Source: Escherichia phage vB_EcoS_I14. Taken from it: 64,000 nucleotides of DNA. This document shows, one piece after another, positions 32,860 through 44,218 of the stretch. Each line of letters begins with the position of its first letter. The stretch's first letter is position 1. The notes under the pieces were generated by a model. That model was not told where the DNA came from. It saw only the letters and a list, made by a program, of their open reading frames with translations, and did not search any database. The stretch lies in sequence record PP892525.1; one strand, written 5' to 3'. The position numbers and the translations under genes were made by a program.

Positions 32860-32888
32860 TTGCTAATTTACTAAGTTATCTGTATAAT
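32860..32888 (+). promoter_or_regulatory. T5-type promoter: -35 TTGCTA, -10 TATAAT
   Basis: 17 bp spacer. Confidence 0.7.
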
Positions 32889-32918
32889 ATATTTTTAAAT
32901 TGATGAAACGAGGCTATT

Positions 32919-33236
32919 ATGACTTTTCATATTTTGATTGATGATGTGCGTAATCTTCACGGAATGGACATTATCATTCGAACCCCAGAAGCCGCTGTAG
33001 AGTTTCTGAATAAAACTGATACCACCGGCCATTTCGTTTATATGGATAATGACTTGGCTGTAGATGGTATGGAAGGTTATCAAATTCTTCGTTTACTCTT
33101 AGAATTTGGGCAGAGACCAAAGAAAGTGGTACTAGTAACCTCGAACCCAGTAGCTAAGCAAAATATGCGTAATGATTTGCTTGACTTAGGGTATAAAGAA
33201 AATCCCAATCGTGTTGAATATGATTGGCAGGAGTAA
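32919..33236 (+). CDS. small protein resembling a CheY-like receiver (REC) domain
   Basis: ILIDDV acidic pair, FVYMDNDLAVDGMEGY candidate phospho-acceptor loop, VVLVTS, later Lys; 105 aa. Confidence 0.45.
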   Translation: MTFHILIDDVRNLHGMDIIIRTPEAAVEFLNKTDTTGHFVYMDNDLAVDGMEGYQILRLLLEFGQRPKKVVLVTSNPVAKQNMRNDLLDLGYKENPNRVEYDWQE

Positions 33237-33241: not shown

Positions 33242-33691
33242 ATGAAGGCAGCTTTGCTTTTAGTAGCTGCCCTTACCTTCAGCTTTAGTAGTCAGGCATC
33301 GCACGATGCAAAAGAAATAGATTGCATTGCTAAAAATATCTATTTCGAGAGTCGTGGTGAGGGCATAAAGGGAATGACGGCAATTGCACATGTTACTAAA
33401 AACCGTGTAAACTCCGGTAAATTCCCAGATTCCTACTGTAAAGTAGTATATCAGTCTAACCAGTTCTCTTGGGTATCTAAGAGACCAAAAGTTGATAAAA
33501 CTGATGAGGCTTGGCAAACCGCTAAGAATTTAGCTAGAGTGATATACTACGTTGATTTACCACAAGATCCTACACATGGAGCACTATACTTCCATAGTGG
33601 TAAAGATAAACCTTACTGGACAAAGAAATTTAAGAAAACAACTAAGATTAAGGGACATACGTTTTATAAACCTGTTGTCACTAAAACTTAA
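33242..33691 (+). CDS. secreted SleB-like cell-wall hydrolase domain protein
   Basis: signal peptide MKAALLLVAALTFSFSSQA; NIYFESRGEG and ALYFHSG resemble the SleB/Hydrolase_2 family. Confidence 0.55.
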   Translation: MKAALLLVAALTFSFSSQASHDAKEIDCIAKNIYFESRGEGIKGMTAIAHVTKNRVNSGKFPDSYCKVVYQSNQFSWVSKRPKVDKTDEAWQTAKNLARVIYYVDLPQDPTHGALYFHSGKDKPYWTKKFKKTTKIKGHTFYKPVVTKT

Positions 33692-33759: not shown

Positions 33760-33930
33760 ATGAAATCAGTTGTAATTATTGGTGTTAACACTCGCGGTAT
33801 TCGTACTACGAAAACTGTTAAAACTTCTAACGTTGCTGAGATCACTACGAACCCTAAAAAGTTTGATTTCGCCAAAGTCTCAGCAGTTATGACAGAACAA
33901 TCTTTTAACCAAGCATTGGGGATGAAATAA
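33760..33930 (+). CDS. hypothetical small protein (56 aa), below the ORF-track length cutoff
   Basis: ATG at 33760 after RBS GAGAGGAAG; stop overlaps next start. Confidence 0.4.
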   Translation: MKSVVIIGVNTRGIRTTKTVKTSNVAEITTNPKKFDFAKVSAVMTEQSFNQALGMK

Positions 33931-34364
33931 TGGGTACGAATATGATTCGTGTGCTGCGAGAATTAATTGAAAAAGCTCGCAAACACGGTGATACTGTGTC
34001 AGTCAAGCACCTTAGTACGATTTTAGGTGACTTACAACGAATTGATAAAGATTGCGTATCTAGACTAGAGTTTACTAACTGGATTAAATCACAGTTCAAA
34101 GCAATTGAGAGTACAATGACTTCTGCTGCAAAAGCAAATATCGAGTATACTCCAGATGCTGAATATCTCGACTTGTTAGCAGGTCTAGAGTATGAATATG
34201 CTCTAGAGCAGTTAACTGAAGTTCAGATTCGTGAGTATTTTGCAGAACTGGTTAAATTAAACCCAGGTATTACCAAAGCTCTATTAATGAAAACTATTAA
34301 GGCAGAATTTCCTGGACGTTATGACGGTAAAACAACTGCTTTGATTGCTAGTGAATTTTTCTAA
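33930..34364 (+). CDS. hypothetical protein (144 aa)
   Basis: ORF. Confidence 0.5.
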   Translation: MGTNMIRVLRELIEKARKHGDTVSVKHLSTILGDLQRIDKDCVSRLEFTNWIKSQFKAIESTMTSAAKANIEYTPDAEYLDLLAGLEYEYALEQLTEVQIREYFAELVKLNPGITKALLMKTIKAEFPGRYDGKTTALIASEFF

Positions 34365-34477: not shown

Positions 34478-34549
34478 GCCGTCCTAGTATAATTGGTATT
34501 ATCAAGCCGTAACTGGTGGAAGATGTAGGTTCGAATCCTACGGTCGGTA
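34478..34549 (+). tRNA. tRNA-like element (degenerate; anticodon arm does not fold)
   Basis: canonical T arm GTAGG-TTCGAAT-CCTAC and acceptor GCCGTCC/GGTCGGT with mismatches. Confidence 0.35.
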
Positions 34550-35052
34550 AGAACTGGATAACTGATGCTTTTAACGTAAAAGCTTCCGAGGTTAGTTGCG
34601 CACTGCCTAAACCACGCGGTAGTTGGTTCCAGACTAACCAACCAGTCTGCTGAATAGTTTTATTACGATTTAACTATGTCCAGGCTAAAGAAGAACTTTA
34701 GAAGGTATTTCTAGGATAGTGAAGTTCTTTCTCCATATCGGAGTAGTTTTTCAAGCTATCCACAAAGTGGGAAATGCTGACATGAGAGATGTCACTAATG
34801 GTGCACAATAGCACAGGTAATTCGCGATAACTCCTGTTGAGTAGCAGCAAAAGGCGGGAAGTCATGACCCCAAGCCTAACCGAGTCCTCAATATACCGCA
34901 GGACATAACCACTAAGTCACCCTGACTTAAACTGGAAAATAATAGACGTTACTGTATTTTGTCTTGAAATACTTAATGAGTGAGACTTATGATTCTCCCG
35001 GTATCGTCTGTATTTTTAAGAGTTTTTACGAGAGTTCTTAAAAATACTTAAA

Positions 35053-35127
35053 CGGGGTGTAGTCTAATGGAGAGGCAGGAGTCTTCTAAATTCCTTTATG
35101 CAGGTTCGAATCCTGTCACCTCGGCCA
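35053..35127 (+). tRNA. tRNA-Arg (anticodon TCT)
   Basis: acceptor CGGGGTG/CACCTCG, anticodon loop CTTCTAA, T loop TTCGAAT, encoded CCA. Confidence 0.8.
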
Positions 35128-35161
35128 ATTTTATTAACTGTAACTAAAACAAAGGAAACAT

Positions 35162-36109
35162 ATGTTTAATACTAAAAATATGAAAGAATTGACTTCTGAG
35201 CAGAAAGTAATTCGTACTATTAAACGTTGGGGTATTGGTGCTATAGTTGGTTTAGCAGGTTTAATCCTAGCTTTTAATTCGTATACCATTGTTTCTGATG
35301 GTACGGTTAAAACCCAAACATTCCTGGGTAAAGTAGACCCTAATCCAGTATTACCTGGTTTCCATCTTGTAAACCCGTTTGCATCTTTCGATACTTTTAG
35401 TACAAAAGATATTGCTGTAAAATTAGATAAACTTCAGGTTCCTAGCCAGGATAAGTTTAAATCCACTGTTGACCTGACTGTTATGTTGCAGTTTGATGGT
35501 TCTAAGGCACCAATTAACCGTATTAACGCAGGTACTCAGGATCAAGCGTTAGACAAGTATGTAACTGAAAAATTACTGTCTACTATTCGTGAGTTTGGTA
35601 AGTCTGTACCTAAAGCACAAGATTTGTTTGATGCTAAAATTCAGGCTCAATTGCAAACCGCAATTCAACAAGAAGTTGAAGAGTATGCACGCCCATATGG
35701 TTACACAGTTAAGCAGGTATTCCTTCAGGATATTACTCTACCACCAGTAATCATGGAACAGGTACAGAATACCAAAGTTCGTGAAGAGCAAGTTAATGCT
35801 GCGAAAGCTGAATTGGCTCGTGTTGAACAGGAAGCACAGCAAAAAGTTAAACAAGCAGAAGCAGATCGTGAAGCTCGCAACAACCAAGCTATTGCTAATG
35901 AACGTGACGCAGATGCTAAACTGTACGCAGCTAAGAAAGAAGCTGAAGCTAACGCCGCACTGCAACGTACCATTACTCCTGAGATGATTCGTTGGAAACA
36001 ACTGGAAGTTGAGATGATTCGTGCTCAGAAATATCAAGGTGGTGTACCGCAGACTGTGGTTGGCACTGGCTATGATGGCCAAATGATTATGGATATGCGT
36101 AATAAATAA
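35162..36109 (+). CDS. SPFH/band-7 (prohibitin/HflC-like) membrane protein
   Basis: N-terminal TM helix GIGAIVGLAGLILAF, SPFH-like core, Ala/Glu/Gln-rich coiled-coil tail; 315 aa. Confidence 0.65.
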   Translation: MFNTKNMKELTSEQKVIRTIKRWGIGAIVGLAGLILAFNSYTIVSDGTVKTQTFLGKVDPNPVLPGFHLVNPFASFDTFSTKDIAVKLDKLQVPSQDKFKSTVDLTVMLQFDGSKAPINRINAGTQDQALDKYVTEKLLSTIREFGKSVPKAQDLFDAKIQAQLQTAIQQEVEEYARPYGYTVKQVFLQDITLPPVIMEQVQNTKVREEQVNAAKAELARVEQEAQQKVKQAEADREARNNQAIANERDADAKLYAAKKEAEANAALQRTITPEMIRWKQLEVEMIRAQKYQGGVPQTVVGTGYDGQMIMDMRNK

Positions 36110-36134
36110 TACCCGCACGTAACATCTGAAGTGA

Positions 36135-36170
36135 GCCCTGCGTTCCCTGGAGAGCGCAGGGCTTTTCTAT
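36135..36170 (+). terminator. rho-independent terminator
   Basis: 8 bp stem GCCCTGCG/CGCAGGGC followed by TTTTCTAT. Confidence 0.75.
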
Positions 36171-36205
36171 ATAATGTATTTGTAAATCTAACTAGGAGAT
36201 CAAAT

Positions 36206-36724
36206 ATGAATGTTGATGAGCTAATACAGCACCTCTTATCTAGGGGATTTGATACAGATAAATATCATTGCTGGTTAAGTCCGGAAGGATGGCTAACAGT
36301 CCCGTTGTATGACTTCTCTGGGATGTTGAGAGGCTATCAGACTTATAATCCTTCTGCTCCCAAAAGGCAGGGTAAGTGCCCATTTGAAGCTAAATATTTT
36401 ACCCATTCTACTACACAGTGTGTATGGGGGCTAGAAACTCTCAATGGAGATGAAAAAGTAGTATTGATTGCTGAATCTGTATTTAAGGCAGTTGCGTTAC
36501 ATAACGCTGGTTATCCCGCCCTAGCAATGTTGGGTTCTTCTCCGGGAAAAGCATTATTAAAGCAACTGAAATTACTACCTTTTAAATTGATAGCTATTGG
36601 TGACAATGATCCCGATGGTGAAAAATTTGCTAGAAAATTAAACGGCTTTGTTTCTCCCGTAGATGTGGATGAGATGTCTACCGAAAACTTGAAAAATTTT
36701 CTTGCTATGAAGCTAAATTTCTAA
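36206..36724 (+). CDS. small Toprim-domain protein
   Basis: VVLIAESVFKA (conserved Glu) and IAIGDNDPDGEKF (DxD); ATG at 36206 with RBS AGGAG. Confidence 0.5.
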   Translation: MNVDELIQHLLSRGFDTDKYHCWLSPEGWLTVPLYDFSGMLRGYQTYNPSAPKRQGKCPFEAKYFTHSTTQCVWGLETLNGDEKVVLIAESVFKAVALHNAGYPALAMLGSSPGKALLKQLKLLPFKLIAIGDNDPDGEKFARKLNGFVSPVDVDEMSTENLKNFLAMKLNF

Positions 36725-36730
36725 TATAAT
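36702..36730 (+). promoter_or_regulatory. T5-type promoter overlapping the 3' end of the Toprim ORF
   Basis: -35 TTGCTA 36702-36707, -10 TATAAT 36725-36730; tRNA-Ser begins 16 nt downstream. Confidence 0.65.
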
Positions 36731-36745
36731 ATATCTTATAAATTC

Positions 36746-36834
36746 GGAAGAATAGCATAACGGTATTGCAGCAGATTGCTAATCTGTCGGTTTGAAATAT
36801 AGCCTTGTGGGTTCGATTCCCACTTCTTCCGCCA
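36746..36834 (+). tRNA. tRNA-Ser (anticodon GCT), long variable arm
   Basis: acceptor GGAAGAA/TTCTTCC, anticodon loop TTGCTAA, T loop TTCGATT, encoded CCA. Confidence 0.8.
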
Positions 36835-36840
36835 GATTTT

Positions 36841-36918
36841 GGTTCTCAAGCTCATATGGTATGAGCACCCGGCTCATAACCGGAAGGTACGTAGGTTCGA
36901 ATCCTCGGGGAGCCACCA
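36841..36918 (+). tRNA. tRNA with anticodon CAT (Met, fMet or Ile-lysidine)
   Basis: anticodon loop CTCATAA; acceptor GGTTCTC/GGGAGCC; T stem imperfect. Confidence 0.6.
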
Positions 36919-37134
36919 ATTAAATAGAGGTCACAAATGGATCTATATATATAGTTTATGTTGTGTTTATCCAAGATAGAGAATACCCGGATGAATATAA
37001 AAAAGGATATAGGTTAGCCAGAGCTACTTCTGAAGCCCAAGCTATGGATAAAGTGGCAGATTATATGATTACAGTAGAAAACGTACACTATATCGACTAC
37101 CTTGAAGCCTCAAAAGTAATTGACTAAACTACAT

Positions 37135-37211
37135 GGGGGTGTAATCGAATTGGCATAGGTACTGGACTTAAAATTCAGGTTTTGTGGGTTCGAATCCCAC
37201 CACCCCTACCA
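37135..37211 (+). tRNA. tRNA with anticodon TAA on a short-variable-loop scaffold
   Basis: acceptor GGGGGTG/CACCCCT, anticodon stem CTGGA/TTCAG with loop CTTAAAA, T arm GTGGG-TTCGAAT-CCCAC, CCA; D arm weak. Confidence 0.55.
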
Positions 37212-37226
37212 AATTAAGGAAATAAG

Positions 37227-37394
37227 ATGTATAGACATCCACCTCCGCCAACACGTCGTTCTAGAGAAGTTATCCTCATGGAATTAACTAAAAACTTCAA
37301 GGCAACTCTTGAAGATAGAGATCTAGGCACGGATGAAGACATTGATTTTATTTGTAGACTACTAAAGATGAAACTGGAGAAACAACATGGCTAA
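37227..37394 (+). CDS. hypothetical small protein (55 aa), below the ORF-track cutoff
   Basis: ATG at 37227 after RBS AAGGAAA; stop overlaps next start (ATGGCTAA). Confidence 0.4.
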   Translation: MYRHPPPPTRRSREVILMELTKNFKATLEDRDLGTDEDIDFICRLLKMKLEKQHG

Positions 37395-37593
37395 TCCTGA
37401 AATTACCGCACAACGTTTCATGCTTAAAGGCATGATTGCTGAAGCAGGTATGACTCAAGAGGTTGCAGACTTTCATAAGCAAATTCTTGATATTATAACT
37501 CTAGCTAAAGAGACTGGAGAAAAAGAGCACGCAGCAGCAATTATGGCTATATCTCTTATTAGTCTAGACTTGGCTGAAGAATCTGGAGTTTAG
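37387..37593 (+). CDS. hypothetical protein (68 aa)
   Basis: ORF. Confidence 0.45.
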   Translation: MANPEITAQRFMLKGMIAEAGMTQEVADFHKQILDIITLAKETGEKEHAAAIMAISLISLDLAEESGV

Positions 37594-37623
37594 CTCCTCC
37601 AAACAGAATTTTTAAAAATGTAC

Positions 37624-37653
37624 TTGCCTTTTGCTTTAAATTTCTGATATAAT
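37624..37653 (+). promoter_or_regulatory. T5-type promoter: -35 TTGCCT, -10 TATAAT
   Basis: 18 bp spacer; RBS AAGGAG before 37684. Confidence 0.6.
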
Positions 37654-37683
37654 AGTTATATAAATTGATGAAGGAGTTAACGA

Positions 37684-37959
37684 ATGCAAAATCGTGTTGT
37701 AGCAGCTGGTATTGAAAGTGCAATCTGTAAATCCTGGGAAGGCTGGGAAGGTGAGATTGAATGGCTTTATTTCTACGATGTAGAACTTCTTCCAGAAGTT
37801 AAAGCTAAATGTGTTGAAGCTGGCATGGCTCCAGATGCAAAAGCTGATATTGATATTTCAATGTCTGAACTTAAAGGTCGTGTAATTACTGTTGGTGATG
37901 AGGGCGAAGAAGTTTTCGAACTTCCGTTCTCCTTAACTGTCACTCCTAAGTTCGACTAA
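37684..37959 (+). CDS. hypothetical acidic protein (91 aa)
   Basis: ORF. Confidence 0.5.
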   Translation: MQNRVVAAGIESAICKSWEGWEGEIEWLYFYDVELLPEVKAKCVEAGMAPDAKADIDISMSELKGRVITVGDEGEEVFELPFSLTVTPKFD

Positions 37960-37995
37960 CTAATACAGCACTGAGCAAGTTCTTTAAAATTTGAC

Positions 37996-38024
37996 TTGCT
38001 CAGTGCCTTAAAACTTGGTATAAT
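37996..38024 (+). promoter_or_regulatory. T5-type promoter: -35 TTGCTC (overlapping TTGACT), -10 TATAAT
   Basis: 17 bp spacer; drives tRNA-Tyr. Confidence 0.6.
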
Positions 38025-38087
38025 AGTTATCTAATTTGGAAACATATTTAAAAGTGTTTAAACTAATATTTGAATACTTTTAAATAT

Positions 38088-38175
38088 GGGCGTTTATTCC
38101 GTAAGTGGTAGCGGAGGGGATTGTAAATCCCTGGTCATTGCGACTCGAGTGGTTCGACTCCATTAACGCCCACCA
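38088..38175 (+). tRNA. tRNA-Tyr (anticodon GTA), long variable arm
   Basis: acceptor GGGCGTT/AACGCCC, anticodon loop TTGTAAA, T loop TTCGACT, CCA. Confidence 0.8.
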
Positions 38176-38192
38176 AATTAAAGGTAAAGGAT

Positions 38193-38684
38193 ATGTATAT
38201 TGATAGGATAATTCAAGAAGCTGCAAATAGGGGTATTATACAGTTAGGTTCACCCGCTGATATAAACAAAGATCTAATATTAGAGAGCCTCACATTTGGT
38301 ACAGCTAACTTTGGTCGCGATAGTAATCGTCGGTATAGTTTGAAGTTATCTGCTCTATCTTTTATCAAGTATAACAAAAGTATTGGAGAAAAATCCAGCT
38401 GTGGTTTTATTTATGCAATAACTAACCCAGCTTGGGATAACTATGTAAAAATTGGTATGTCTTCTGATCCTAAAACAAGATTAGGAAATTACCAGACTTA
38501 CTCTCCTTTACGTGATTATAAGTTAATACATTGGTCATTTTGGTTTAATGCTAGAGAAGCTGAGAAAATGCTTCATAATAGCTTTCCCGAACGGCTTAAT
38601 GAATGGGTAGTATTAGATAGAAGTGTAGATGAAATACTTTCTGAGTTTAATAATCTATCCAATAAACAATTTAAGTCCTGTTAG
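38193..38684 (+). CDS. GIY-YIG motif protein (homing-endonuclease-like)
   Basis: CGFIYAITNPAWDNYVKIGMSS...R...Y matches the GIY-(10)-YIG pattern, unusually in the C-terminal half. Confidence 0.5.
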   Translation: MYIDRIIQEAANRGIIQLGSPADINKDLILESLTFGTANFGRDSNRRYSLKLSALSFIKYNKSIGEKSSCGFIYAITNPAWDNYVKIGMSSDPKTRLGNYQTYSPLRDYKLIHWSFWFNAREAEKMLHNSFPERLNEWVVLDRSVDEILSEFNNLSNKQFKSC

Positions 38685-38751
38685 ACAAACTGGTAAAGTC
38701 ACTACCCTTTCAAGGTAGGGTTTGTGGGTTCGATCCCCGCACAGGACGCCA
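38675..38751 (+). tRNA. tRNA-Glu (anticodon TTC)
   Basis: perfect acceptor GTCCTGT/ACAGGAC, anticodon stem CTACC/GGTAG with loop CTTTCAA, T loop TTCGATC, CCA. Confidence 0.85.
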
Positions 38752-38759
38752 ATTTCTGC

Positions 38760-38836
38760 ATTCCTAGAGTGTTACTGGACAGCATGTCGGTCTCCAAAAC
38801 CGTACGGTCTAGGTTCGAGTCCTAGTAGGTTTGCCA
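38760..38836 (+). tRNA. possible tRNA-Trp (anticodon CCA) with a mismatched acceptor stem
   Basis: anticodon loop CTCCAAA, T arm CTAGG-TTCGAGT-CCTAG, CCA; acceptor has two U-U oppositions. Confidence 0.45.
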
Positions 38837-38842
38837 AAATTT

Positions 38843-38917
38843 GCACCTTTAGCTGAGATGGATTAGCGCTTGCCTGAAGAGCTTGAGAGGTTCGTTCGAT
38901 ACGAACAGGGTGCACCA
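38843..38917 (+). tRNA. probable tRNA-Phe (anticodon GAA)
   Basis: acceptor GCACCTT/AGGGTGC, anticodon loop CTGAAGA, T arm GTTCG-TTCGATA-CGAAC, CCA; two mismatches in anticodon stem. Confidence 0.55.
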
Positions 38918-38919
38918 AA

Positions 38920-39207
38920 TTGAAGGAGCTGCTGATGCATCCTGAAAACTTCTTTATTTACTGCGCTGATAAGTCGCTAAAACGTAGAATTAACAAAGTC
39001 TATCATTATCGTGCTAGTCAACAGCCTTATGTATATGCTTTTGACGGTGATCACATTCCACTAGAACAATTATCTTGTGATTACATGATATTGAAGAACT
39101 TTGACGAGACGAAGATCTCAAGCGTTCACAATCGACAGAATCCATTAACGTGGAAATATAAGAAGAAAAAGAAAGGAATCAAATTCTTAAAAAATGTAGT
39201 TGCTTAG
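38920..39207 (+). CDS. hypothetical protein (95 aa)
   Basis: ORF. Confidence 0.45.
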   Translation: MKELLMHPENFFIYCADKSLKRRINKVYHYRASQQPYVYAFDGDHIPLEQLSCDYMILKNFDETKISSVHNRQNPLTWKYKKKKKGIKFLKNVVA

Positions 39208-39228
39208 TTTCCAAAAGTTCTGTATAAT
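39200..39228 (+). promoter_or_regulatory. T5-type promoter: -35 TTGCTT, -10 TATAAT
   Basis: 17 bp spacer. Confidence 0.65.
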
Positions 39229-39239
39229 AATTACATAAA

Positions 39240-39482
39240 TTGAACTGGAGAAGCAACATGACAGAACAAGAATTGAATGAACGTAAGCTGGTAATGCTTC
39301 GCTTACTAAATATTTTCTCTGGTATGGACGGTGGAATTGACTTTGTTCATCTACGTTCTTTCGTAGAAGAAGCCGAAGGCGAATCTATCACTAAAATCCT
39401 TAAACACATGGGATTACTTTTAGATGCTGCTAATGTGGCTACTGAATATAAACTAGAAGATCTACCGGAGCGTGTTAAATGA
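39240..39482 (+). CDS. hypothetical protein (80 aa)
   Basis: RBS GGAG. Confidence 0.5.
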   Translation: MNWRSNMTEQELNERKLVMLRLLNIFSGMDGGIDFVHLRSFVEEAEGESITKILKHMGLLLDAANVATEYKLEDLPERVK

Positions 39483-39670
39483 AACGATTAGTTAGATTTA
39501 AGTGTTGTGGTTCTGAACATATTTTCACACATCTTCGTGAATTTAAAATGTGTGATTGTGGTAAATCAGGCTATGACTCAGGAGATGGGTTCTACGCCCG
39601 TACTCTAGGGAACTTCAATGATCTAGAATTTGAAGATCTCGAAAAGCAAGATAAATCGACCGTTGGCTGA
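39479..39670 (+). CDS. hypothetical zinc-ribbon-like protein (63 aa)
   Basis: Cys pairs CCGSEH...CDCGKSG. Confidence 0.45.
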   Translation: MKRLVRFKCCGSEHIFTHLREFKMCDCGKSGYDSGDGFYARTLGNFNDLEFEDLEKQDKSTVG

Positions 39671-39732
39671 ATGGCTTAGGCGAAGGATTGCAAATCCTTT
39701 TTATGTGAGTTCAAATCTCATGCGGTCGTCCA
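39657..39732 (+). tRNA. tRNA-Cys (anticodon GCA)
   Basis: acceptor CGACCGT/GCGGTCG, anticodon stem AAGGA/TCCTT with loop TTGCAAA, T loop TTCAAAT, CCA. Confidence 0.8.
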
Positions 39733-39739
39733 AATTTTA

Positions 39740-39822
39740 GGGTCGTTAGCCAAGCGGTTTGGCGGCGGATTGTTAATCCGTGTCGAAAGACAACGTAGGT
39801 TCGAATCCTACACGGCCCGCCA
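39740..39822 (+). tRNA. tRNA with anticodon GTT on a long-variable-arm (type II) scaffold
   Basis: acceptor GGGTCGT/ACGGCCC, anticodon stem GCGGA/TCCGT with loop TTGTTAA, 13 nt variable arm GTCGAAAGACAAC, T arm GTAGG-TTCGAAT-CCTAC, CCA. Confidence 0.6.
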
Positions 39823-39924
39823 AATTCTGTGTAGAGTTAAGTAAACCGGTAGCCAACCAGCTATCATTGCTGACATCGAATTCAGCCACAGATACCATTT
39901 TCATTAATAACTGAGGAAACAAGC

Positions 39925-40110
39925 ATGTCCAAGAATGTAATTGCACAGTTAGAAGTTCATCGTGATAACACAGCTAATAACATTAAGTGCCGACAAAAAG
40001 ATATTGAAGCTCGAAAGGCTGATCTTTTAATGAGTATTCGAGAGCTTAATGTACGAAAAGAGTTTCTTAAAGAACTTAATGCAGCTATTGAAAAACTCAA
40101 AGCTGAGTAA
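39925..40110 (+). CDS. hypothetical protein (61 aa)
   Basis: RBS GAGGAAA. Confidence 0.45.
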   Translation: MSKNVIAQLEVHRDNTANNIKCRQKDIEARKADLLMSIRELNVRKEFLKELNAAIEKLKAE

Positions 40111-40119
40111 ATGAATTAT

Positions 40120-40196
40120 GCGACCGGGGCTGGCTTGGTAATGGTACTCCCCTGTCACGGGAGGGAATGTGGGTTCAAATCCCATCGGTCGCGCCA
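40120..40196 (+). tRNA. tRNA-Asp (anticodon GTC)
   Basis: perfect acceptor GCGACCG/CGGTCGC, anticodon stem CTCCC/GGGAG with loop CTGTCAC, T loop TTCAAAT, CCA. Confidence 0.85.
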
Positions 40197-40222
40197 AACT
40201 AAACTAGCACGAGAAATATGAT

Positions 40223-40570
40223 ATGGTTAATGCTAAAGAAGAATTGTTACTTGCCCTAAAGAATACTAATTCTGAAGTTAAGTGTATTAAGATAGAATTC
40301 GGTTATTATGGGGACAAAGAAGTTTGGGTATTACCCATAGGTTATACAGAAAAAGATATTGAAGATTTTCTAAATAATCTAGACTTTAAATATGATTCTG
40401 GTTTCGGTGGACAATTGCTTTATGGTAACGTATGGTTTACTGATGGAACTTGGTTAGAACGTGGTGAATACGACGGTTCTGAATGGTGGGAATATAAGGC
40501 TACACCAGCAATCCCAGAAGAATGCCGAACAATTAATGGTGAAGTAGATCGTACTTTACTATTAAATTAA
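40223..40570 (+). CDS. hypothetical protein (115 aa)
   Basis: ORF. Confidence 0.5.
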   Translation: MVNAKEELLLALKNTNSEVKCIKIEFGYYGDKEVWVLPIGYTEKDIEDFLNNLDFKYDSGFGGQLLYGNVWFTDGTWLERGEYDGSEWWEYKATPAIPEECRTINGEVDRTLLLN

Positions 40571-40692
40571 CAAAATTTCAGTGCAGAACACGGAGCTAGC
40601 AATTCGGAAGTGCTGACTCATGATAAGCTGCCTATGTACTTGCGAAGCGGTCGTGTCCAAGACTCGGACTCTTGCACTGAAAACAATCAAAC

Positions 40693-40813
40693 ATTCTAGC
40701 GTGGTTGATGGGGAAACCAGCTTGGCTAGGGCAGAAGCTCGTTCGATTCGAGTGAAAGAATGGTTCTCGTAAGTCCGCACAAGTGATAGCAGGTTCGAGT
40801 CCTGTCTAGAATG
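40693..40813 (+). ncRNA. candidate tRNA-like RNA of about 121 nt with an enlarged central region
   Basis: 7 bp acceptor-like helix ATTCTAG/CTAGAAT, D-arm-like TGGTT...AACCA, canonical T arm GCAGG-TTCGAGT-CCTGT, but about 68 nt where an anticodon arm should be. Confidence 0.35.
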
Positions 40814-40962
40814 ACACTATAAAGTTTACTTATTATGTAGGTTCCGATAGATCGGCGGGTCTATTCTGGCATTTAAGAGAAGTCTCGCAAACTTTTTTGT
40901 CAGCCGTGGGGTTGGTAGCCTCCAGGTGGCCTACACAATAAGTAAATTTATTAAAAATTCAT

Positions 40963-40991
40963 TTGCTATTCTGCTTTATTATCTGTATAAT
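40963..40991 (+). promoter_or_regulatory. T5-type promoter: -35 TTGCTA, -10 TATAAT
   Basis: 17 bp spacer. Confidence 0.7.
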
Positions 40992-41023
40992 ATATTTTAT
41001 AAAGTGAAGAGAAGGAAAGCAAA

Positions 41024-41182
41024 ATGAAACACAAGATAGCTCAAGTCTTTATGGCATTATGGTGTATGCCAATAGCTATAACAGCATTTAATCTAGATAC
41101 TTTTACTATAGAAGAAAAATATATCGGATTAGTTAGCGGCTTTAGTATGCTGGGCTTATCTTTGCTGTGGTTAAAGAAATAA
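41024..41182 (+). CDS. hypothetical small membrane protein (52 aa), below the ORF-track cutoff
   Basis: ATG at 41024 after RBS AAGGAAAG; hydrophobic. Confidence 0.4.
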   Translation: MKHKIAQVFMALWCMPIAITAFNLDTFTIEEKYIGLVSGFSMLGLSLLWLKK

Positions 41183-41186
41183 TATT

Positions 41187-41264
41187 CTCCGTGTAGCTCA
41201 GTTTGGCCAGAGCGTTTCGTCTGGAGCGATAGGGTCGGGGGTTCAAATCCTCCCACGGAGACCA
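41187..41264 (+). tRNA. possible tRNA-Pro (anticodon TGG), atypical anticodon loop
   Basis: acceptor CTCCGTG/CACGGAG, D stem GCTC/GAGC, loop TCTGGAG with C at position 33, T arm GGGGG-TTCAAAT-CCTCC, CCA. Confidence 0.5.
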
Positions 41265-41270
41265 AATAAT

Positions 41271-41348
41271 TGCGGGTTAGATCTCTGGTAGAGATCGCTA
41301 GTCTCATAAGCTAGAAAGAGGTAGGTTCGATTCCTGCACCCGCTTCCA
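41271..41348 (+). tRNA. tRNA with anticodon CAT (Met, fMet or Ile-lysidine)
   Basis: anticodon stem CTAGT/GCTAG with loop CTCATAA, D stem GATC/GATC, T loop TTCGATT, CCA; position 1-72 mispaired. Confidence 0.65.
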
Positions 41349-41368
41349 TTTTAATAGAGGATTTCGAA

Positions 41369-41536
41369 ATGAAAGTATTTCGATTAGTAGTAAGTGACAA
41401 ACGCTTAGGTAAGAATACATCAAAATCCTTACTTGCTCATTATGGTAGAAATTGGGATGAAGTAATGGCAGAGTTTAGTACTAATCACCCTTACTTGAAA
41501 GTTCACTCTATTAAAGAAGTATACAATGGTTACTAA
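41369..41536 (+). CDS. hypothetical small protein (55 aa), below the ORF-track cutoff
   Basis: ATG at 41369; ends 2 nt before tRNA-Lys. Confidence 0.4.
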   Translation: MKVFRLVVSDKRLGKNTSKSLLAHYGRNWDEVMAEFSTNHPYLKVHSIKEVYNGY

Positions 41537-41537
41537 T

Positions 41538-41616
41538 AGATCGCTAGCTCAATAGGTTTAGTAGCATCCGACTTTTAATCGGAAGGTTCTGGGTTCGAGT
41601 CCCAGGCGATCTACCA
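41538..41616 (+). tRNA. tRNA-Lys (anticodon TTT)
   Basis: perfect acceptor AGATCGC/GCGATCT, anticodon stem TCCGA/TCGGA with loop CTTTTAA, T arm CTGGG-TTCGAGT-CCCAG, CCA. Confidence 0.85.
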
Positions 41617-41620
41617 AATT

Positions 41621-41694
41621 GCTCGGTTAGTTTAATGGGAGAACCCCGTCTTTACACGGCGGTTGCGATAGTTCGATTCTATCACCGAGTACCA
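41621..41694 (+). tRNA. tRNA-Val (anticodon TAC)
   Basis: acceptor GCTCGGT/ACCGAGT, anticodon loop TTTACAC, T arm GATAG-TTCGATT-CTATC, CCA. Confidence 0.8.
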
Positions 41695-41713
41695 ATTAAC
41701 TCAAAATAAGGAA

Positions 41714-42073
41714 TTGCAAATGCAATTATCAAGCAAGGTTCAAGGCTATTTCGGTCATGTAACAATGGAGTTCGCTATCTCTAAAGGTTGGGACTTCGAA
41801 CAAGATTTAGCTGAGTTCTACAAAGATATTGATCTGAACGTACCATATATGGGACTTTCTACTGGTCAGGAGATCACAGAAGCCGATGTATTCAAGGCAA
41901 GTCAAGGTGAGGTAACACCTAGTTTTGCCGAGTTCTGGTTAGGCATTACGTTAAAAGAAGATGCACCAGATAGTGGTGTACTAATGTCTAGTTTGCACTC
42001 TGGAAGTTCCGATTACCTTTTCATTAGCGATGTTAAGGAAATACAAGAAGTCTGCAAAAATGTACTTGCTTGA
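41714..42073 (+). CDS. hypothetical protein (119 aa)
   Basis: RBS AAGGAA; 3' end overlaps next promoter. Confidence 0.5.
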   Translation: MQMQLSSKVQGYFGHVTMEFAISKGWDFEQDLAEFYKDIDLNVPYMGLSTGQEITEADVFKASQGEVTPSFAEFWLGITLKEDAPDSGVLMSSLHSGSSDYLFISDVKEIQEVCKNVLA

Positions 42074-42094
42074 TGCTTAATTTCTTGTTATAAT
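42066..42094 (+). promoter_or_regulatory. T5-type promoter: -35 TTGCTT, -10 TATAAT, driving a non-coding transcript
   Basis: 17 bp spacer; no ORF follows, only a structured region and then tRNA-Ala. Confidence 0.65.
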
Positions 42095-42120
42095 ATTTAT
42101 ATAAATTGATGAGGATTTCT

Positions 42121-42310
42121 CCTCATCATAGTTCACTAAGGTATTAGCTCGACCTAGGACTGGCTGCCAAAAAGCACGATCCCTACGATTCGGGAGAAGT
42201 TCTAGATTAGTCCACTAGATTCAGCGGCAACTGAATAGTGTATTGGGTTTGCGAGATGACGCGGTTCCTTCCGCTCGAAGCGAAGGTGCTGTAGTTACGC
42301 CGAGCTAATA
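42121..42310 (+). ncRNA. candidate structured small RNA of about 190 nt
   Basis: terminal clamp ATTAGCTCG (42143-42151) pairing with CGAGCTAAT (42301-42309); internal hairpins GCGGTTCCTTCCGC and CTTCGC/GCGAAG; no ORF. Confidence 0.4.
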
Positions 42311-42332
42311 GCCTTAGTAAACTAAAGAATTT

Positions 42333-42406
42333 GGGGATATAGTTTAATGGTAGAACATCTGCTTTGCACGCAGAAGACGAGGGTTCAACTCCCTCTTTCT
42401 CCACCA
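42333..42406 (+). tRNA. tRNA-Ala (anticodon TGC)
   Basis: anticodon stem TCTGC/GCAGA with loop TTTGCAC, T arm GAGGG-TTCAACT-CCCTC, CCA; one U-U in acceptor. Confidence 0.7.
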
Positions 42407-42412
42407 AAATTC

Positions 42413-42497
42413 GGGGCTATGCTGGAACTGGTAGACAATACGGCCTTAGATTCCGTAGCTTAAATGCGTGGGAGTTCGAGTCTCCCTAGCCCCACCA
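42413..42497 (+). tRNA. tRNA-Leu (anticodon TAG), long variable arm
   Basis: perfect acceptor GGGGCTA/TAGCCCC, anticodon loop CTTAGAT, T arm GGGAG-TTCGAGT-CTCCC, CCA. Confidence 0.75.
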
Positions 42498-42513
42498 ACT
42501 TATAGGGTAATGT

Positions 42514-43098
42514 ATGCAGTTTGTACCAATAAAAGATGCACCAGGGTATTTAGTAAATGAAACAGGGGATGTGTTATCTACATTTACTAATAAAATTTTA
42601 TCAAGATATATAGTTGATGGATACCCTGCTGTAAAATTACAGATAAATGGTAAGCAAACTTCGGTACTTATACACCGAATTATTTCTCATGTATTTGGGG
42701 ACTTATATAATCTATTTGACCCTGAATTAGAAGTAGATCACAAGGATAGAGATAGGCTGAATCTATCTAAAGATAATCTTCAAGTTTTATCAAAAATAGA
42801 ACATCAGAAGAAAACTAATAAAGATAATGGATGGTCTGATAGTAGAGTACCTTGCCCCTTATGTGGAAATCTAATGCTTCAGAGATCAGTAACATGTACA
42901 AATTGTAAGCCAAAACCTACAGGAAAGTTAATAAAACCAGAGTTGTCCTTAGAAGACATAACTGAAAAGGTTTTATTAATGGGGTGGGTTAAGGCAGCTA
43001 AAGATCTAGAAGTATCAGAGTCCACTTTACGTAGACGATATACTAAACTAACCGGATTAAGCCCAAAAGTATTAACAGAACAACGGAAAAGCAAATAG
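42514..43098 (+). CDS. HNH homing endonuclease-like protein
   Basis: HNH motif in VDHKDRDRLNLSKDNLQVLSKIEHQ plus C-terminal Cys cluster; embedded in tRNA array. Confidence 0.7.
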   Translation: MQFVPIKDAPGYLVNETGDVLSTFTNKILSRYIVDGYPAVKLQINGKQTSVLIHRIISHVFGDLYNLFDPELEVDHKDRDRLNLSKDNLQVLSKIEHQKKTNKDNGWSDSRVPCPLCGNLMLQRSVTCTNCKPKPTGKLIKPELSLEDITEKVLLMGWVKAAKDLEVSESTLRRRYTKLTGLSPKVLTEQRKSK

Positions 43099-43178
43099 AC
43101 TGGTGACTAAACCCGATTGGAAATCGGTTGAGTGGTAGCAATACCGCCTTATGGGTTCAACTCCCATCTTTTCCGCCA
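43085..43178 (+). tRNA. tRNA-Ser (anticodon GGA), long variable arm
   Basis: perfect acceptor GGAAAAG/CTTTTCC, anticodon loop TTGGAAA, T arm ATGGG-TTCAACT-CCCAT, CCA. Confidence 0.8.
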
Positions 43179-43190
43179 AACAATTTATAT

Positions 43191-43285
43191 GGTAGGTCAA
43201 TCCAACGGCTGGCGCTGGACTCCGACTTGAAATCGGTTGATCGTAGTGATACGGTGTAAGGGTTCGATCCCCTTACCTACCTCCA
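43191..43285 (+). tRNA. tRNA-Ser (anticodon TGA), long variable arm
   Basis: perfect acceptor GGTAGGT/ACCTACC, anticodon loop CTTGAAA, T arm AAGGG-TTCGATC-CCCTT, CCA. Confidence 0.8.
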
Positions 43286-43651
43286 AATCTTGAAGTATGC
43301 CGGAATCGGTAGACGGGGCTGCCTAAAAGGTTTATAGGGAACATCCACTCCCTGCAACATACCTCATAAAGCGGCTGAGATAAATGGTCTATCTCGTGAA
43401 GGTTCAAGTCCTTCTGCTTCTTGATACATCTATGGCTCAAAGTGTAACGGTGCTATTTGATGCTCTTGGTAAGACTTCCCCGACATGCGTTCGGGAGTAA
43501 GCTGCTAAGGCTAGGGTAGAAGAGTTTCTGAGAGCCGCCACAATTGAAAATTCGTACTCGTCTTGAGCTGCGTGCAATAGGAGATAACTTGATTAGTATT
43601 CTAGAACATGCTAATTGAGGAAGGTTTCGCTAACCCTGCGAGTTTTCAATT

Positions 43652-43728
43652 GTGGCTATATCATAATTGGTTAATGATCCTGATTGTGAATCAGGCCTAT
43701 GTGGATTCGAATTCCACTAGCCACCCCA
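43652..43728 (+). tRNA. tRNA-His (anticodon GTG)
   Basis: perfect acceptor GTGGCTA/TAGCCAC, anticodon stem CCTGA/TCAGG with loop TTGTGAA, T arm GTGGA-TTCGAAT-TCCAC, CCA. Confidence 0.85.
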
Positions 43729-43752
43729 AATTAACTTAAATAGGAAATAAAT

Positions 43753-43947
43753 ATGGCTGATTTCTGCAAACAATGCTCCATTGATATGTGGGGCAGAGAT
43801 ACTGGTGATCTTTCTGGTTTGATTACAGAAGCTGAAGTTAAAGAAGGCTACGGTGCTGTTGTGGTTTGCGAAGGATGCGGAGTTATTCGAGTAGATCATG
43901 AAGGCAAACGTTTGGAAGAATCTGAGCCAACAACGATTTTTCCGTAG
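43753..43947 (+). CDS. hypothetical zinc-ribbon protein (64 aa)
   Basis: CKQC...CEGCG Cys pairs; RBS TAGGAAA. Confidence 0.5.
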   Translation: MADFCKQCSIDMWGRDTGDLSGLITEAEVKEGYGAVVVCEGCGVIRVDHEGKRLEESEPTTIFP

Positions 43948-43963
43948 AATAAGATGAAATTAT

Positions 43964-44039: not shown

Positions 44040-44045
44040 AACAAT

Positions 44046-44120: not shown

Positions 44121-44126
44121 ATTTAC

Positions 44127-44201: not shown

Positions 44202-44218
44202 ATTTTTAAGGAAACGTT

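What the first reader, a model, noticed from the sequence alone, without database searches (positions are those of the whole stretch)
32919..33236. Phage-encoded stand-alone receiver (REC)-like domain
The 105 aa product has the order of features seen in CheY-like receivers: hydrophobic strand ending in an acidic pair (ILIDDV), a central FVYMDNDL with a candidate phospho-acceptor Asp followed by DGMEGY, a Thr/Ser strand (VVLVTS) and a downstream Lys. No output domain is attached. A free receiver could act as a phosphate sink or decoy for host two-component signalling during infection.
Basis: inference. Interest (0 to 1): 0.6.

Follow-up and report, generated by a model that had tools for sequence, protein, structure and literature searches.

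The report
T5-type phage cREC receiver-like protein
This small, strongly conserved early gene of a T5-like phage encodes a stripped-down relative of bacterial "receiver" signalling domains; it belongs to an already catalogued phage family (cREC, Pfam PF20274) that is predicted, but never shown, to open cyclic-phosphate ends on damaged RNA or NAD-derived nucleotides, and nothing points to interference with host two-component signalling.

The parts
32860..32888 (+). Sigma-70-type promoter-like site (TTGCTA, 17 nt spacer, TATAAT) 30 nt upstream of the start codon.
   Evidence: 10 of 12 consensus matches. The same place is annotated as a promoter in T5 (L001 7840-7914).
32910..32913 (+). Shine-Dalgarno GAGG, 5 nt before the ATG.
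   Evidence: Read directly from the sequence.
32919..33236 (+). cREC-family gene (105 aa plus stop), ortholog of T5 gene T5.084 / YP_006912.1.
   Evidence: dN/dS is 0.089 against T5.
32940..32951 (+). Codons for D8, D9, V10 and R11: the acidic pair at the end of strand beta1 plus the family-invariant Arg.
   Evidence: D8 is 146/148, D9 is 146/148 and R11 is 139/148 (plus 6 Lys). Strand beta1 spans residues 4-7.
33045..33053 (+). Codons for D43, N44 and D45: a DxD motif at the end of strand beta3. D43 is the probable equivalent of CheY D57, and D45 sits at the D+2 position.
   Evidence: Both Asp are 147/148. The profile-profile alignment places D43 opposite D57, whereas the alignment to a single CheY sequence placed D45 there. 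Strand beta3 spans residues 39-42.
33138..33146 (+). Codons for T74, S75 and N76: the Thr/Ser at the end of strand beta4 (equivalent to CheY T87) and the invariant Asn at T+2.
   Evidence: T/S is 148/148 and N76 is 146/148.
33242..33691 (+). The next gene, 5 nt after the cREC stop codon: a SleB-like cell-wall hydrolase with a signal peptide (T5.083). It is probably co-transcribed with cREC.
   Evidence: Pfam Hydrolase_2, E = 2.4e-25. The same gene order is seen in T5 and in the divergent contig L012, but not in My1 or L016.
33760..34364 (+). DUF7616 (56 aa) and a 144-aa protein of phrog_1460, which is labelled 'tRNA amidotransferase'. Both lie in the same transcription direction, between cREC and the tRNA region.
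   Evidence: The PHROG name has not been verified.
34478..45691 (+). The tRNA region. It starts with a tRNA-like element 1.2 kb downstream of cREC, and ARAGORN finds 24 tRNA genes between 35053 and 45691.
17865..19363 (-). Distant genes, 14 kb away on the other strand, of the predicted phage RNA-end-repair set: a HAD_SAK_2 phosphatase (17865-18371) and a SIR2 protein (18527-19363). A functional link to cREC is inferred only.
   Evidence: Pfam E = 7.2e-20 and 8.1e-25. The SIR2 plus 'Swiss-army-knife' HAD neighbourhood of T5-like phage SP15 is described in PMC9503650.
32485..32848 (+). Adjacent feature not shown to be functionally linked to cREC: a conserved structured RNA of about 360 nt that fills the ORF-free gap upstream of the cREC promoter.
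   Evidence: The fold z-score is -5.8. Of 52 consensus pairs, 23 show changes on both sides; 93.5% of cells are paired against 34-50% in slid controls, and 0 of 500 shuffles reach the observed values. There is no Rfam match.

Best explanation
The ORF is a genuine, strongly constrained early gene of a T5-like phage (ortholog of T5.084). It encodes a single-domain member of the cREC family (Pfam PF20274), a minimal offshoot of the receiver fold found almost only in phages.

The protein keeps the receiver's acidic pocket (D8, D9, D43) and the Thr/Ser (T74). It adds family-invariant D45, two residues after the acceptor Asp, which gives a DxD arrangement like that of HAD phosphatases. It also adds invariant R11, R21 and N76. 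It has lost helices alpha1 and alpha5 and the conserved Lys.

It most likely does not signal. It most likely acts as a small aspartate-based phosphoesterase (or transient phospho-acceptor) that opens cyclic phosphodiesters. Candidate substrates are the 2',3'-cyclic phosphate ends left on tRNA/RNA by metal-independent nucleases, or cyclic ADP-ribose-phosphate by-products of NAD-dependent end repair. In that role it would be part of the phage's tRNA/translation-maintenance module, expressed together with the tRNA array.

Shown here: the gene, family membership, the fold, residue conservation and genomic context. Inferred: catalysis, the metal requirement, the substrate and the biological role.
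For: Family and fold:
- PF20274 scores E = 3.8e-15, and every homolog found carries PF20274.

Selection:
- dN/dS is 0.089 against T5.
- The gene is present in 493 phage records.

Active-site-like conservation:
- About ten polar residues are invariant across 148 representatives (D8, D9, R11, R21, D43, D45, T/S74, N76, plus G53 and P67). The DD pair, D43/D45 and T74-N76 follow directly the C-terminal ends of beta1, beta3 and beta4, which is where receivers have their active site.
- D43 aligns with CheY D57, and D45 with the D+2 position.

Context:
- The gene lies 1.2-1.8 kb upstream of the 24-gene tRNA region.
- The KVP40-like homolog lies about 2 kb from a 20-tRNA array.
- In roughly 8 of 10 lineages whose cREC proteins are mostly under 50% identical to each other, a tRNA gene lies within the fetched flank of up to 8 kb.
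- Neighbours of homologs include a T4 Rnl1-type RNA ligase 1 kb upstream (L013), NADAR (L016), two nucleoside deoxyribosyltransferase-like genes and flanking tRNAs (L022), calcineurin-like phosphoesterases, a phage IF3 homolog and L7/L12-C-terminal-like proteins.
- The same phage encodes HAD_SAK_2, SIR2, two Metallophos proteins and an Rv2179c-like exoribonuclease.

Published prediction: the same function is proposed in PMC7824862 and PMC9503650.
Against: - No cREC protein has been tested experimentally. PMC9503650 says so explicitly, and no later paper was found.
- In this phage the gene is not adjacent to any NAD- or RNA-repair gene. SIR2 and HAD_SAK_2 are 14 kb away on the other strand.
- Its immediate partner is a secreted cell-wall hydrolase.
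- No RNA ligase or polynucleotide kinase was found among the window ORFs examined or in the SCF and T5 annotations. An Rnl1 tblastn search does not show the roughly 270 Salmonella T5-like records that would be expected if T5-like phages carried one. Any sealing step would therefore have to be done by the host.
- The tRNA-proximity count has no proper background control.
- Which of D43 and D45 corresponds to the acceptor Asp is unresolved.
- The T5 clade departs from the family at two positions: Ala replaces the near-invariant Gly47, and Gln replaces the usual C-terminal Lys/Arg.
- Known T5 counter-defence against tRNA nucleases works through nuclease-resistant phage tRNAs, not repair (PMC11464382, PMC12409363). 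The PARIS nuclease AriB needs Mg2+ to cleave, and from general knowledge of Toprim nucleases (not stated in the paper) it would not leave cyclic phosphates.
Confidence: 0.4

Rival explanations
1. One reading: a free receiver that takes phosphate from host histidine kinases or Hpt proteins. It would act as a sink or decoy that rewires host two-component signalling during infection.
For: The fold is receiver-like. The acidic triad and the Thr are conserved, so phosphorylation on Asp is chemically plausible. Single-domain receivers acting as phosphate sinks exist in bacteria (established knowledge).
Against: - PF00072 is not significant.
- Helices alpha1 and alpha5 are absent. In canonical receivers alpha1 and the beta5-alpha5 loop form the kinase-docking surface, and alpha5 is part of the alpha4-beta5-alpha5 output surface.
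- The quintet Lys is not conserved.
- The family is reported never to occur with histidine kinases.
- No kinase gene was found near any homolog examined.
- The family occurs in phages of very different hosts with the same invariant residues. That argues for a universal small substrate rather than host-specific kinases.
Confidence: 0.04
2. A non-catalytic switch or ligand sensor. The receiver-like pocket binds a phosphorylated small molecule or is phosphorylated by a small donor. The exposed beta-sheet face left by the loss of alpha1 and alpha5 then binds a partner, for example a translation factor-like protein or the ribosome, and modulates it.
For: One face of the sheet is predicted to be uncovered (three helices only), which suggests an interaction or dimerisation surface. 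In several lineages the gene overlaps or abuts a gene for an L7/L12-C-terminal-like protein (L007/L008, L017-L021) or lies next to a phage IF3 homolog. Almost all members are stand-alone proteins of about 100 aa.
Against: Ten invariant polar residues clustered at strand ends look more like a catalytic site than a binding site. The L12-like partner is absent from the window and from most other loci, and most phage L12-like genes have no cREC beside them. No partner is conserved across the family.
Confidence: 0.2
3. An anti-defence enzyme that destroys host immune or stress nucleotides rather than repairing RNA. Candidate targets are cyclic ADP-ribose isomers, cyclic-phosphate-terminated oligoadenylates and 2',3'-cNMPs.
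For: The describers of the family list cADPr-type molecules as candidate substrates alongside RNA ends, and report fusions to Nudix. NADAR and deoxyribosyltransferase-like neighbours were seen here. It is an early gene with its own promoter.
Against: There is no match to any PADLOC model and no reported anti-defence phenotype. In this phage no NAD/ADPr gene is adjacent. The recurrent neighbours are tRNAs and translation-related genes.
Confidence: 0.15
4. A function tied to its operon partner: an accessory or regulator of the SleB-like secreted cell-wall hydrolase encoded 5 nt downstream.
For: The cREC stop and the hydrolase start are tightly spaced. The gene order cREC, Hydrolase_2, DUF7616 is conserved in T5 and in the divergent contig L012.
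Against: The pair is broken in My1 and L016 and is absent from KVP40-like and all other lineages examined. cREC has no signal peptide, whereas the hydrolase does.
Confidence: 0.05

Closest known systems
cREC, the 'cyclic-phosphate processing Receiver domain' (Pfam PF20274; Iyer, Anantharaman, Krishnan, Burroughs and Aravind 2021, PMC7824862; Iyer et al. 2022, PMC9503650)
   Same: The match is significant and full-length. The same invariant Asp residues are present. It is encoded by a phage, stands alone and has no kinase partner. UniProt and GenBank already use this name for identical or near-identical T5-like proteins.
   Different: In T5-like phages the gene is not adjacent to the NAD/ADPr or RNA-ligase genes that define the published neighbourhoods; SIR2 and HAD_SAK_2 are 14 kb away. 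The T5 clade has Ala where the family has a near-invariant Gly (position 47), and it lacks the usual C-terminal Lys/Arg.
Canonical response-regulator receiver domain (CheY, Spo0F; Pfam PF00072)
   Same: It has the same Rossmann-like core: five parallel-type strands with active-site residues at their C-terminal ends, and receivers are the best structural matches. The acidic pair, the central Asp and the Thr/Ser are in equivalent positions.
   Different: PF00072 scores below its threshold. There are only three helices, with alpha1 and alpha5 missing. There is no conserved Lys. It has extra invariant D45, R11, R21 and N76. It has no histidine kinase or Hpt partner.
HAD-superfamily phosphatases (DxD motif I)
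   Same: The resemblance is in inferred chemistry only. An Asp at a strand end is followed two residues later by a second invariant Asp (D43-x-D45). In HAD enzymes these are the nucleophile and the general acid/base. Receivers and HAD enzymes both form acyl-phosphates on Asp with Mg2+ (established knowledge).
   Different: Homology to HAD was not tested. The motif sits on beta3, not beta1. There is no cap domain and no HAD motifs II-IV. This is a mechanistic analogy, not membership.
Functional analogues that resolve 2',3'-cyclic phosphates: 2H phosphoesterases (LigT) and the phosphatase domain of T4 polynucleotide kinase
   Same: They carry out the reaction predicted for cREC and have the same biological setting: phage and host RNA-end healing after attack by anticodon nucleases (PMC9503650).
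   Different: Their folds and catalytic residues are unrelated. Their activities have been demonstrated, whereas cREC's has not.

Membership tests
cREC (Pfam PF20274) | Significant match to the family profile, above the curated threshold. | tested here: met
   56.8 bits against a cutoff of 27, E = 3.8e-15, covering residues 4-87 of the protein and positions 2-86 of the 88-position profile. All 61 homologs found carry PF20274.
cREC (Pfam PF20274) | Receiver-derived fold with the conserved catalytic aspartates retained. | tested here: met
cREC (Pfam PF20274) | Never associated with histidine kinases. | tested here: met
   No kinase or Hpt family was found among about 45 window ORFs scanned, in the T5 and SCF annotations, or in 13 homolog neighbourhoods. 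Not every small ORF was scanned.
cREC (Pfam PF20274) | Gene-neighbourhood or fusion link to NAD/ADP-ribose-processing or RNA-repair genes. | tested here: inconclusive
   The link is not adjacent in the window: SIR2 and HAD_SAK_2 are 14 kb away. It is adjacent in some relatives, with Rnl1 in L013 and NADAR in L016. The link seen consistently here is to tRNA arrays.
cREC (Pfam PF20274) | Hydrolysis of cyclic phosphates, the activity that gives the family its name. | not testable with these tools
   The activity is a prediction only. PMC9503650 states that the family is experimentally uncharacterised.
Canonical receiver domain (PF00072, CheY-like) | Match to PF00072 above the gathering score. | tested here: not met
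   12.5 bits against a cutoff of 30.2, E = 0.17. In the PDB sequence search, CheY scores E = 0.34 or worse.
Canonical receiver domain (PF00072, CheY-like) | A (beta-alpha)5 three-layer sandwich with five helices. | tested here: not met
   DSSP on the model gives strands 4-7, 18-20, 39-42, 69-72, 93-94 and 100-102 but only three helices (23-32, 53-62, 77-89). There is no alpha1 and no alpha5. The TM-score to receivers is only about 0.55.
Canonical receiver domain (PF00072, CheY-like) | The conserved quintet: two Asp after beta1, an Asp after beta3, Thr/Ser after beta4 and Lys after beta5. | tested here: not met
   Four of the five are present. The Lys is absent: CheY K109 aligns with N95, and positions 93-95 are variable. 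The family's C-terminal Lys/Arg (122 of 148) is Gln in this protein.
Canonical receiver domain (PF00072, CheY-like) | A cognate histidine kinase or phosphotransferase partner. | tested here: not met
   None was found in the window or in relatives (see the cREC row on kinases). Biochemical phosphotransfer cannot be tested with these tools.

The most novel reading that the evidence does not exclude
cREC proteins are a receiver domain converted into a true enzyme by a HAD-like DxD dyad (D43 as nucleophile, D45 as acid/base), with Arg taking over the role of the lost Lys. In T5-like phages the protein would heal 2',3'-cyclic-phosphate ends on tRNAs cut by host anticodon nucleases, so that host enzymes (RtcB or the CCA-adding enzyme) can restore them. 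This would be a repair arm that complements the nuclease-resistant tRNA array encoded next to it. The recurring placement next to tRNA arrays, IF3-like and L12-like genes would then mark a phage 'translation-maintenance' module.
Probability: 0.25. Interest if true: 0.6.

Novelty: already known. Interest (0 to 1): 0.3.

Why it matters
The finding itself is ordinary. The protein belongs to a Pfam family defined in 2021, and public databases already give identical T5-like proteins that name. What remains open is the biochemistry, because no cREC protein has been tested. T5 is a genetically tractable model whose interplay with tRNA-targeting defences (PARIS, retrons, PrrC-type nucleases) is under active study. 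A single 105-aa protein with about ten invariant residues is therefore an easy target for the first enzymatic and structural characterisation of the family. If it is a cyclic-phosphate esterase built on a receiver scaffold, that would show how a signalling fold was turned into an enzyme, and it would add a repair component to phage counter-defence against tRNA cleavage. The structured RNA found just upstream may be the more novel object in this stretch.

Tried and rejected
- **The search for related loci with the 37-sequence alignment.** It failed because no stretch was conserved enough. A sub-alignment gave only 6 loci.
- **AFDB fold library.** It was not available.
- **tblastn with distant family members (P0049, P0058).** It recovered only T5-like and KVP40-like phages, not the rV5, Mydo or BF groups named in the literature.
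- **cREC profile against PDB sequences.** It gave a spurious E = 1e-16 to TAL effectors. Each repeat scores only 3-7 bits, and the sum over 15-20 repeats produces the low E-value, so I rejected it as a low-information motif resemblance.
- **NCBIfam and PADLOC.** No hits.
- **Fusions as a functional clue.** The only fusion found is to an HNH homing endonuclease, which is uninformative.
- **L7/L12-like partner in the window and other loci.** None found. Most phage L12-like genes have no cREC beside them, so this pairing is lineage-specific.
- **T5 deletion mutants as an essentiality test.** Published viable deletions (29191-32442 and 30661-38625) do not reach T5.084 at 42745-43062.
- **Literature.** The RNA-repair paper PMC5062991 is not held. 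A search for DUF2828 gave nothing useful.
- **Covariance model of the upstream RNA's 3' domain.** It found no extra copies in the window or in other cREC loci.

Full report
**The observation.** An ATG-initiated ORF of 105 codons occupies 32919..33236 on the + strand, exactly as reported. A GAGG Shine-Dalgarno sequence lies 5 nt upstream. A TTGCTA-17-TATAAT promoter-like site lies at 32860-32888.

The window is a T5-like phage (Demerecviridae). The surrounding 5 kb is 97.8% identical to Salmonella phage SCF and 93.5% identical to T5. The ORF is the ortholog of T5 gene T5.084 (YP_006912.1, 'hypothetical protein'), and T5's annotators placed a promoter immediately upstream of it. Against T5 the gene has 13 synonymous and 5 non-synonymous differences, giving dN/dS = 0.089. 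tblastn finds the protein in 493 phage records: about 440 T5-like phages, many at 100% identity, and 50 KVP40-like vibriophages. It is a real gene under purifying selection.

**What it is.** The protein matches Pfam PF20274, cREC_REC ('cyclic-phosphate processing Receiver domain'), with E = 3.8e-15 and 56.8 bits against a cutoff of 27. The canonical receiver model PF00072 reaches only 12.5 bits against a cutoff of 30.2. PHROG 1479, of unknown function, matches at E = 3.8e-30. NCBIfam and PADLOC give nothing, and no solved structure is detectable by sequence.

All 61 homologs from the large protein collection carry PF20274. Several are already named 'cyclic-phosphate processing receiver domain-containing protein' by NCBI or UniProt. 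An exhaustive profile search finds 427 clusters (at 50% identity) with E of 1e-3 or better. Nearly all are stand-alone proteins of about 100 aa. The only fusion I saw is to an HNH homing endonuclease.

The model has strands at 4-7, 18-20, 39-42, 69-72, 93-94 and 100-102 but only three helices (23-32, 53-62, 77-89). The receiver's alpha1 is replaced by a 10-residue loop, and alpha5 by a short hairpin. In CheY-like receivers alpha1 and alpha5 cover one face of the sheet, so that face is predicted to be uncovered here. That last point is an inference from the secondary structure, because I could not inspect coordinates.

**Conserved residues.** In an alignment of 148 family representatives the conservation is as follows:

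| Residue | Count of 148 |
|---|---|
| D8 | 146 |
| D9 | 146 |
| R11 | 139 (plus 6 Lys) |
| R21 | 145 |
| D43 | 147 |
| D45 | 147 |
| G53 | 148 |
| P67 | 137 |
| T/S74 | 148 |
| N76 | 146 |
| D17 | 131 |
| Y92 | 133 (9 more are Phe, 3 Trp) |

A profile-profile alignment to four canonical receivers puts D43 opposite CheY D57, D45 at the D+2 position and T74 opposite T87. An alignment to CheY alone shifts this by two residues, so that D45 lies opposite D57, and it also pairs Y92 with Y106 and N95 with K109. The strand boundaries of the model favour D43, but this is not settled.

No Lys is conserved where the receiver quintet needs one. Most family members have a C-terminal aromatic-x-Lys/Arg motif (122 of 148), but this protein has Gln at that position. 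The T5 clade also has Ala instead of the near-invariant Gly47.

The 'downstream Lys' is not.

**Why the two-component decoy idea is weak.**
- The authors who defined cREC state that it is never found with histidine kinases. They find it only with NAD/ADP-ribose-processing or RNA-repair genes. They predict that it resolves 2',3'-cyclic phosphates on RNA or 1''-2'' cyclic ADP-ribose phosphate, and they stress that it is experimentally uncharacterised (PMC7824862, PMC9503650).
- I found no later experimental work.
- Independently of the literature, the missing alpha1 and alpha5 remove the surface that receivers use to dock onto kinases (alpha1 and the beta5-alpha5 loop) and part of the alpha4-beta5-alpha5 surface they use to signal. 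This rests on established structural knowledge combined.
- No kinase gene turned up in the window or in 13 neighbourhoods of homologs.

**Context in this phage.** The gene heads a short + strand unit:
- cREC itself;
- 5 nt later, a SleB-like secreted cell-wall hydrolase (Hydrolase_2);
- DUF7616;
- a 144-aa protein of phrog_1460, labelled 'tRNA amidotransferase';
- a tRNA-like element at 34478-34549;
- tRNA-Arg and the rest of the 24-gene tRNA region.

Upstream lies an Rv2179c-like 3'-5' exoribonuclease. Elsewhere the window encodes a 'Swiss-army-knife' HAD phosphatase and a SIR2 protein (17865-19363, - strand), two calcineurin-like phosphoesterases (55369-57123) and a split NAD-dependent DNA ligase.

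I found no RNA ligase or polynucleotide kinase. An Rnl1 tblastn search shows no sign of T5-like Salmonella phages among its 1857 hits. A complete phage-encoded heal-and-seal pathway is therefore not evident, and sealing would need the host.

**Context in relatives.** I examined about ten cREC lineages, mostly under 50% identical to each other.
- In about eight of them a tRNA gene lies within the fetched flank of up to 8 kb: 50 nt downstream in L009, 14 nt in L022, 1.3 kb in L013, and about 2 kb from a 20-tRNA array in the KVP40-like phage phi-pp2.
- Protein neighbours include a T4 Rnl1-type RNA ligase (L013), NADAR (L016), two nucleoside deoxyribosyltransferase-like genes (L022), calcineurin-like phosphoesterases, a phage IF3 homolog (L014), and genes with an L7/L12 C-terminal-domain segment that overlap or abut the cREC gene (L007/L008, L017-L021).
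- The L12-like pairing is lineage-specific. It is absent from the window, and 12 of 17 phage L12-like loci have no cREC nearby.

These counts have no formal background. As a rough guide, the chance of a random gene lying within 2 kb of the tRNA array is about 14% in a T5-like genome and about 4% in a KVP40-like genome.

**Mechanism (inferred).** About ten invariant polar residues, most of them at or just after the C-terminal ends of the strands, point to a catalytic pocket rather than a mere scaffold. The pocket keeps the three acidic residues that bind Mg2+ and carry the phosphoryl group in receivers. It adds an Asp at D+2 and an Asn at T+2. In CheY-type receivers those two positions tune access of water to the acyl-phosphate (established knowledge). 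In HAD phosphatases the D+2 Asp is the general acid/base.

I therefore favour an Asp-nucleophile phosphoesterase that opens a cyclic phosphodiester, with R11 and R21 taking over the charge role of the missing Lys. I put confidence in this enzymatic, cyclic-phosphate, tRNA/RNA-linked reading at about 0.4. Family membership itself is close to certain.

Rivals are a non-catalytic switch acting on a translation-related partner (0.2), degradation of immune nucleotides (0.15), a role with the adjacent cell-wall hydrolase (0.05) and the two-component decoy (0.04).

Two points weaken the specific tRNA-repair story for T5. T5's documented escape from tRNA-cleaving defences works through nuclease-resistant phage tRNAs. 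The PARIS nuclease also needs Mg2+ to cleave, and from general knowledge of Toprim nucleases it would not be expected to leave cyclic phosphates. Published viable T5 deletions do not include T5.084, so they say nothing about whether it is dispensable.

**Novelty.** The family, its name and its predicted role are published, and databases already label identical proteins. I rate this 'already known', with modest interest (0.3) because the biochemistry is still open and T5 is a convenient system.

**By-product: a structured RNA upstream.** The 442-nt ORF-free gap upstream of the gene (32477-32918) is not empty.
- As RNA on the + strand, positions 32477-32860 fold far better than shuffled sequence (-98.2 against -71.5 +/- 4.6 kcal/mol, z = -5.8).
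- The sequence is more conserved between this phage and T5 than the flanking genes are. blastn finds it in 451 phage records, nearly all T5-like.
- Diverged copies exist in My1, in a divergent T5-like contig (L012) and in the unrelated Vequintavirinae phage 4MG and two metagenomic relatives. In those the copy ends about 15-20 nt before tRNA-Thr, at the head of or inside a tRNA array.
- The consensus structure has 52 pairs, 23 of them with changes on both sides. Cells are 93.5% paired, against 34-50% when partners are slid by 1-3 columns, and 0 of 500 column shuffles reach the observed values. The 21-bp closing helix covaries at 16 pairs.
- Two invariant G-U pairs indicate an RNA on the + strand.
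- No Rfam family matches.

In My1 the element precedes the hydrolase gene while cREC lies elsewhere. The element therefore goes with the tRNA region rather than with cREC itself.

Noticed in passing
window 32485-32848 (+); also L001 about 7485-7850, L012 7640-7990, L006 7745-8100, L040 1335-1673, L063 about 455-815, L065 2773-3135 (-): A conserved structured RNA of about 360 nt fills the ORF-free gap upstream of the cREC promoter. The fold z-score is -5.8. Of 52 consensus pairs, 23 change on both sides. Cells are 93.5% paired against 34-50% in slid controls, and 0 of 500 shuffles reach that. Invariant G-U pairs point to the + strand. It has no Rfam match. It occurs in 451 phage records by blastn (nearly all T5-like), in My1, and in unrelated 4MG-like phages, where it ends 15-20 nt before tRNA-Thr at the head of or inside a tRNA array.
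   Followed up: partly
L007 8306-8656, L008 6878-7231, L017 2182-2736, L018 774-1331, L019 6329-6883, L020 6309-6668: In about three metagenomic phage lineages the gene that overlaps or directly follows the cREC stop encodes a protein with a segment of the ribosomal L7/L12 C-terminal domain (NKVAxIKAxRxLTGxGLKEAKDAVE; PF00542, 35-39 bits against a cutoff of 25.9). This is not found in the window, and most phage L12-like genes lack a cREC neighbour.
   Followed up: partly
L014 4590-5060; L013 5793-6938; L016 7072-7560; L022 3450-3959 and 6635-7081: Other neighbours of cREC homologs are a phage IF3 homolog, a T4 Rnl1-type RNA ligase, a NADAR protein, and two nucleoside 2-deoxyribosyltransferase-like proteins flanking a cREC gene that is itself flanked by tRNA-Glu and tRNA-Pro.
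   Followed up: partly
window 34478-34549 and 36841-36915 (+): Rfam's tRNA model scores two elements above its gathering threshold (35.5 and 40.3 bits) that ARAGORN did not call. The first lies in the region that T5 annotates as the stable 'RNAX'. The second corresponds to T5's tRNA-Ile(CAU).
   Followed up: no
cREC profile (alignment A2) against PDB sequences: There is a spurious whole-sequence E = 1e-16 to TAL effectors. The cREC beta4-loop-alpha4 segment (GxxPxxVVLVTSNPVA) resembles the TALE repeat (GLTPxQVVAIASNxGGKQALE). Each repeat scores only 3-7 bits, and the scores add up over 15-20 repeats.
   Followed up: yes
window 17865-18371 (-): Pfam identifies this 168-aa protein as HAD_SAK_2, the 'Swiss-army-knife' RNA-repair phosphatase (E = 7e-20). 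PHROG 18062 and GenBank records of relatives label it 'Sir2 NAD-dependent deacetylase', probably by transfer from the true SIR2 gene nearby at 18527-19363.
   Followed up: partly
window 31838-32476 (+): This 212-aa early-region protein is labelled 'tail fiber protein' in T5 and by phrog_1491. It has no Pfam match and sits among early nucleotide-metabolism genes. Phage SCF instead annotates a reverse-strand ORF at the same place. The label looks unreliable.
   Followed up: no
P0062 (273 aa); Salmonella phage Kenya-K44 38582-38878: In some T5-like phages an HNH_3 homing-endonuclease domain is fused to, or annotated together with, the cREC domain. This is probably a homing-endonuclease insertion just upstream.
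   Followed up: no
L005 8445-10456 (Vibrio phage phi-pp2): About 1 kb downstream of the KVP40-like cREC gene lie a 478-aa DUF2828/DUF7788 protein and an RNaseH_like (PF04308) protein, both annotated only as hypothetical.
   Followed up: no
window 35162-36109 (+); L022 1109-3024: A Band-7/SPFH membrane protein lies 1.9 kb downstream of cREC in the window. In the jumbo-phage contig L022, two ORFs 3-5 kb upstream of its cREC look HflK/HflC-like by eye; no profile was run on them. This may be coincidence.
   Followed up: no
window 32844-32860 / 32886-32902: A 17-nt inverted repeat (94% complementary) brackets the spacer and the -10 hexamer of the cREC promoter-like site.
   Followed up: no
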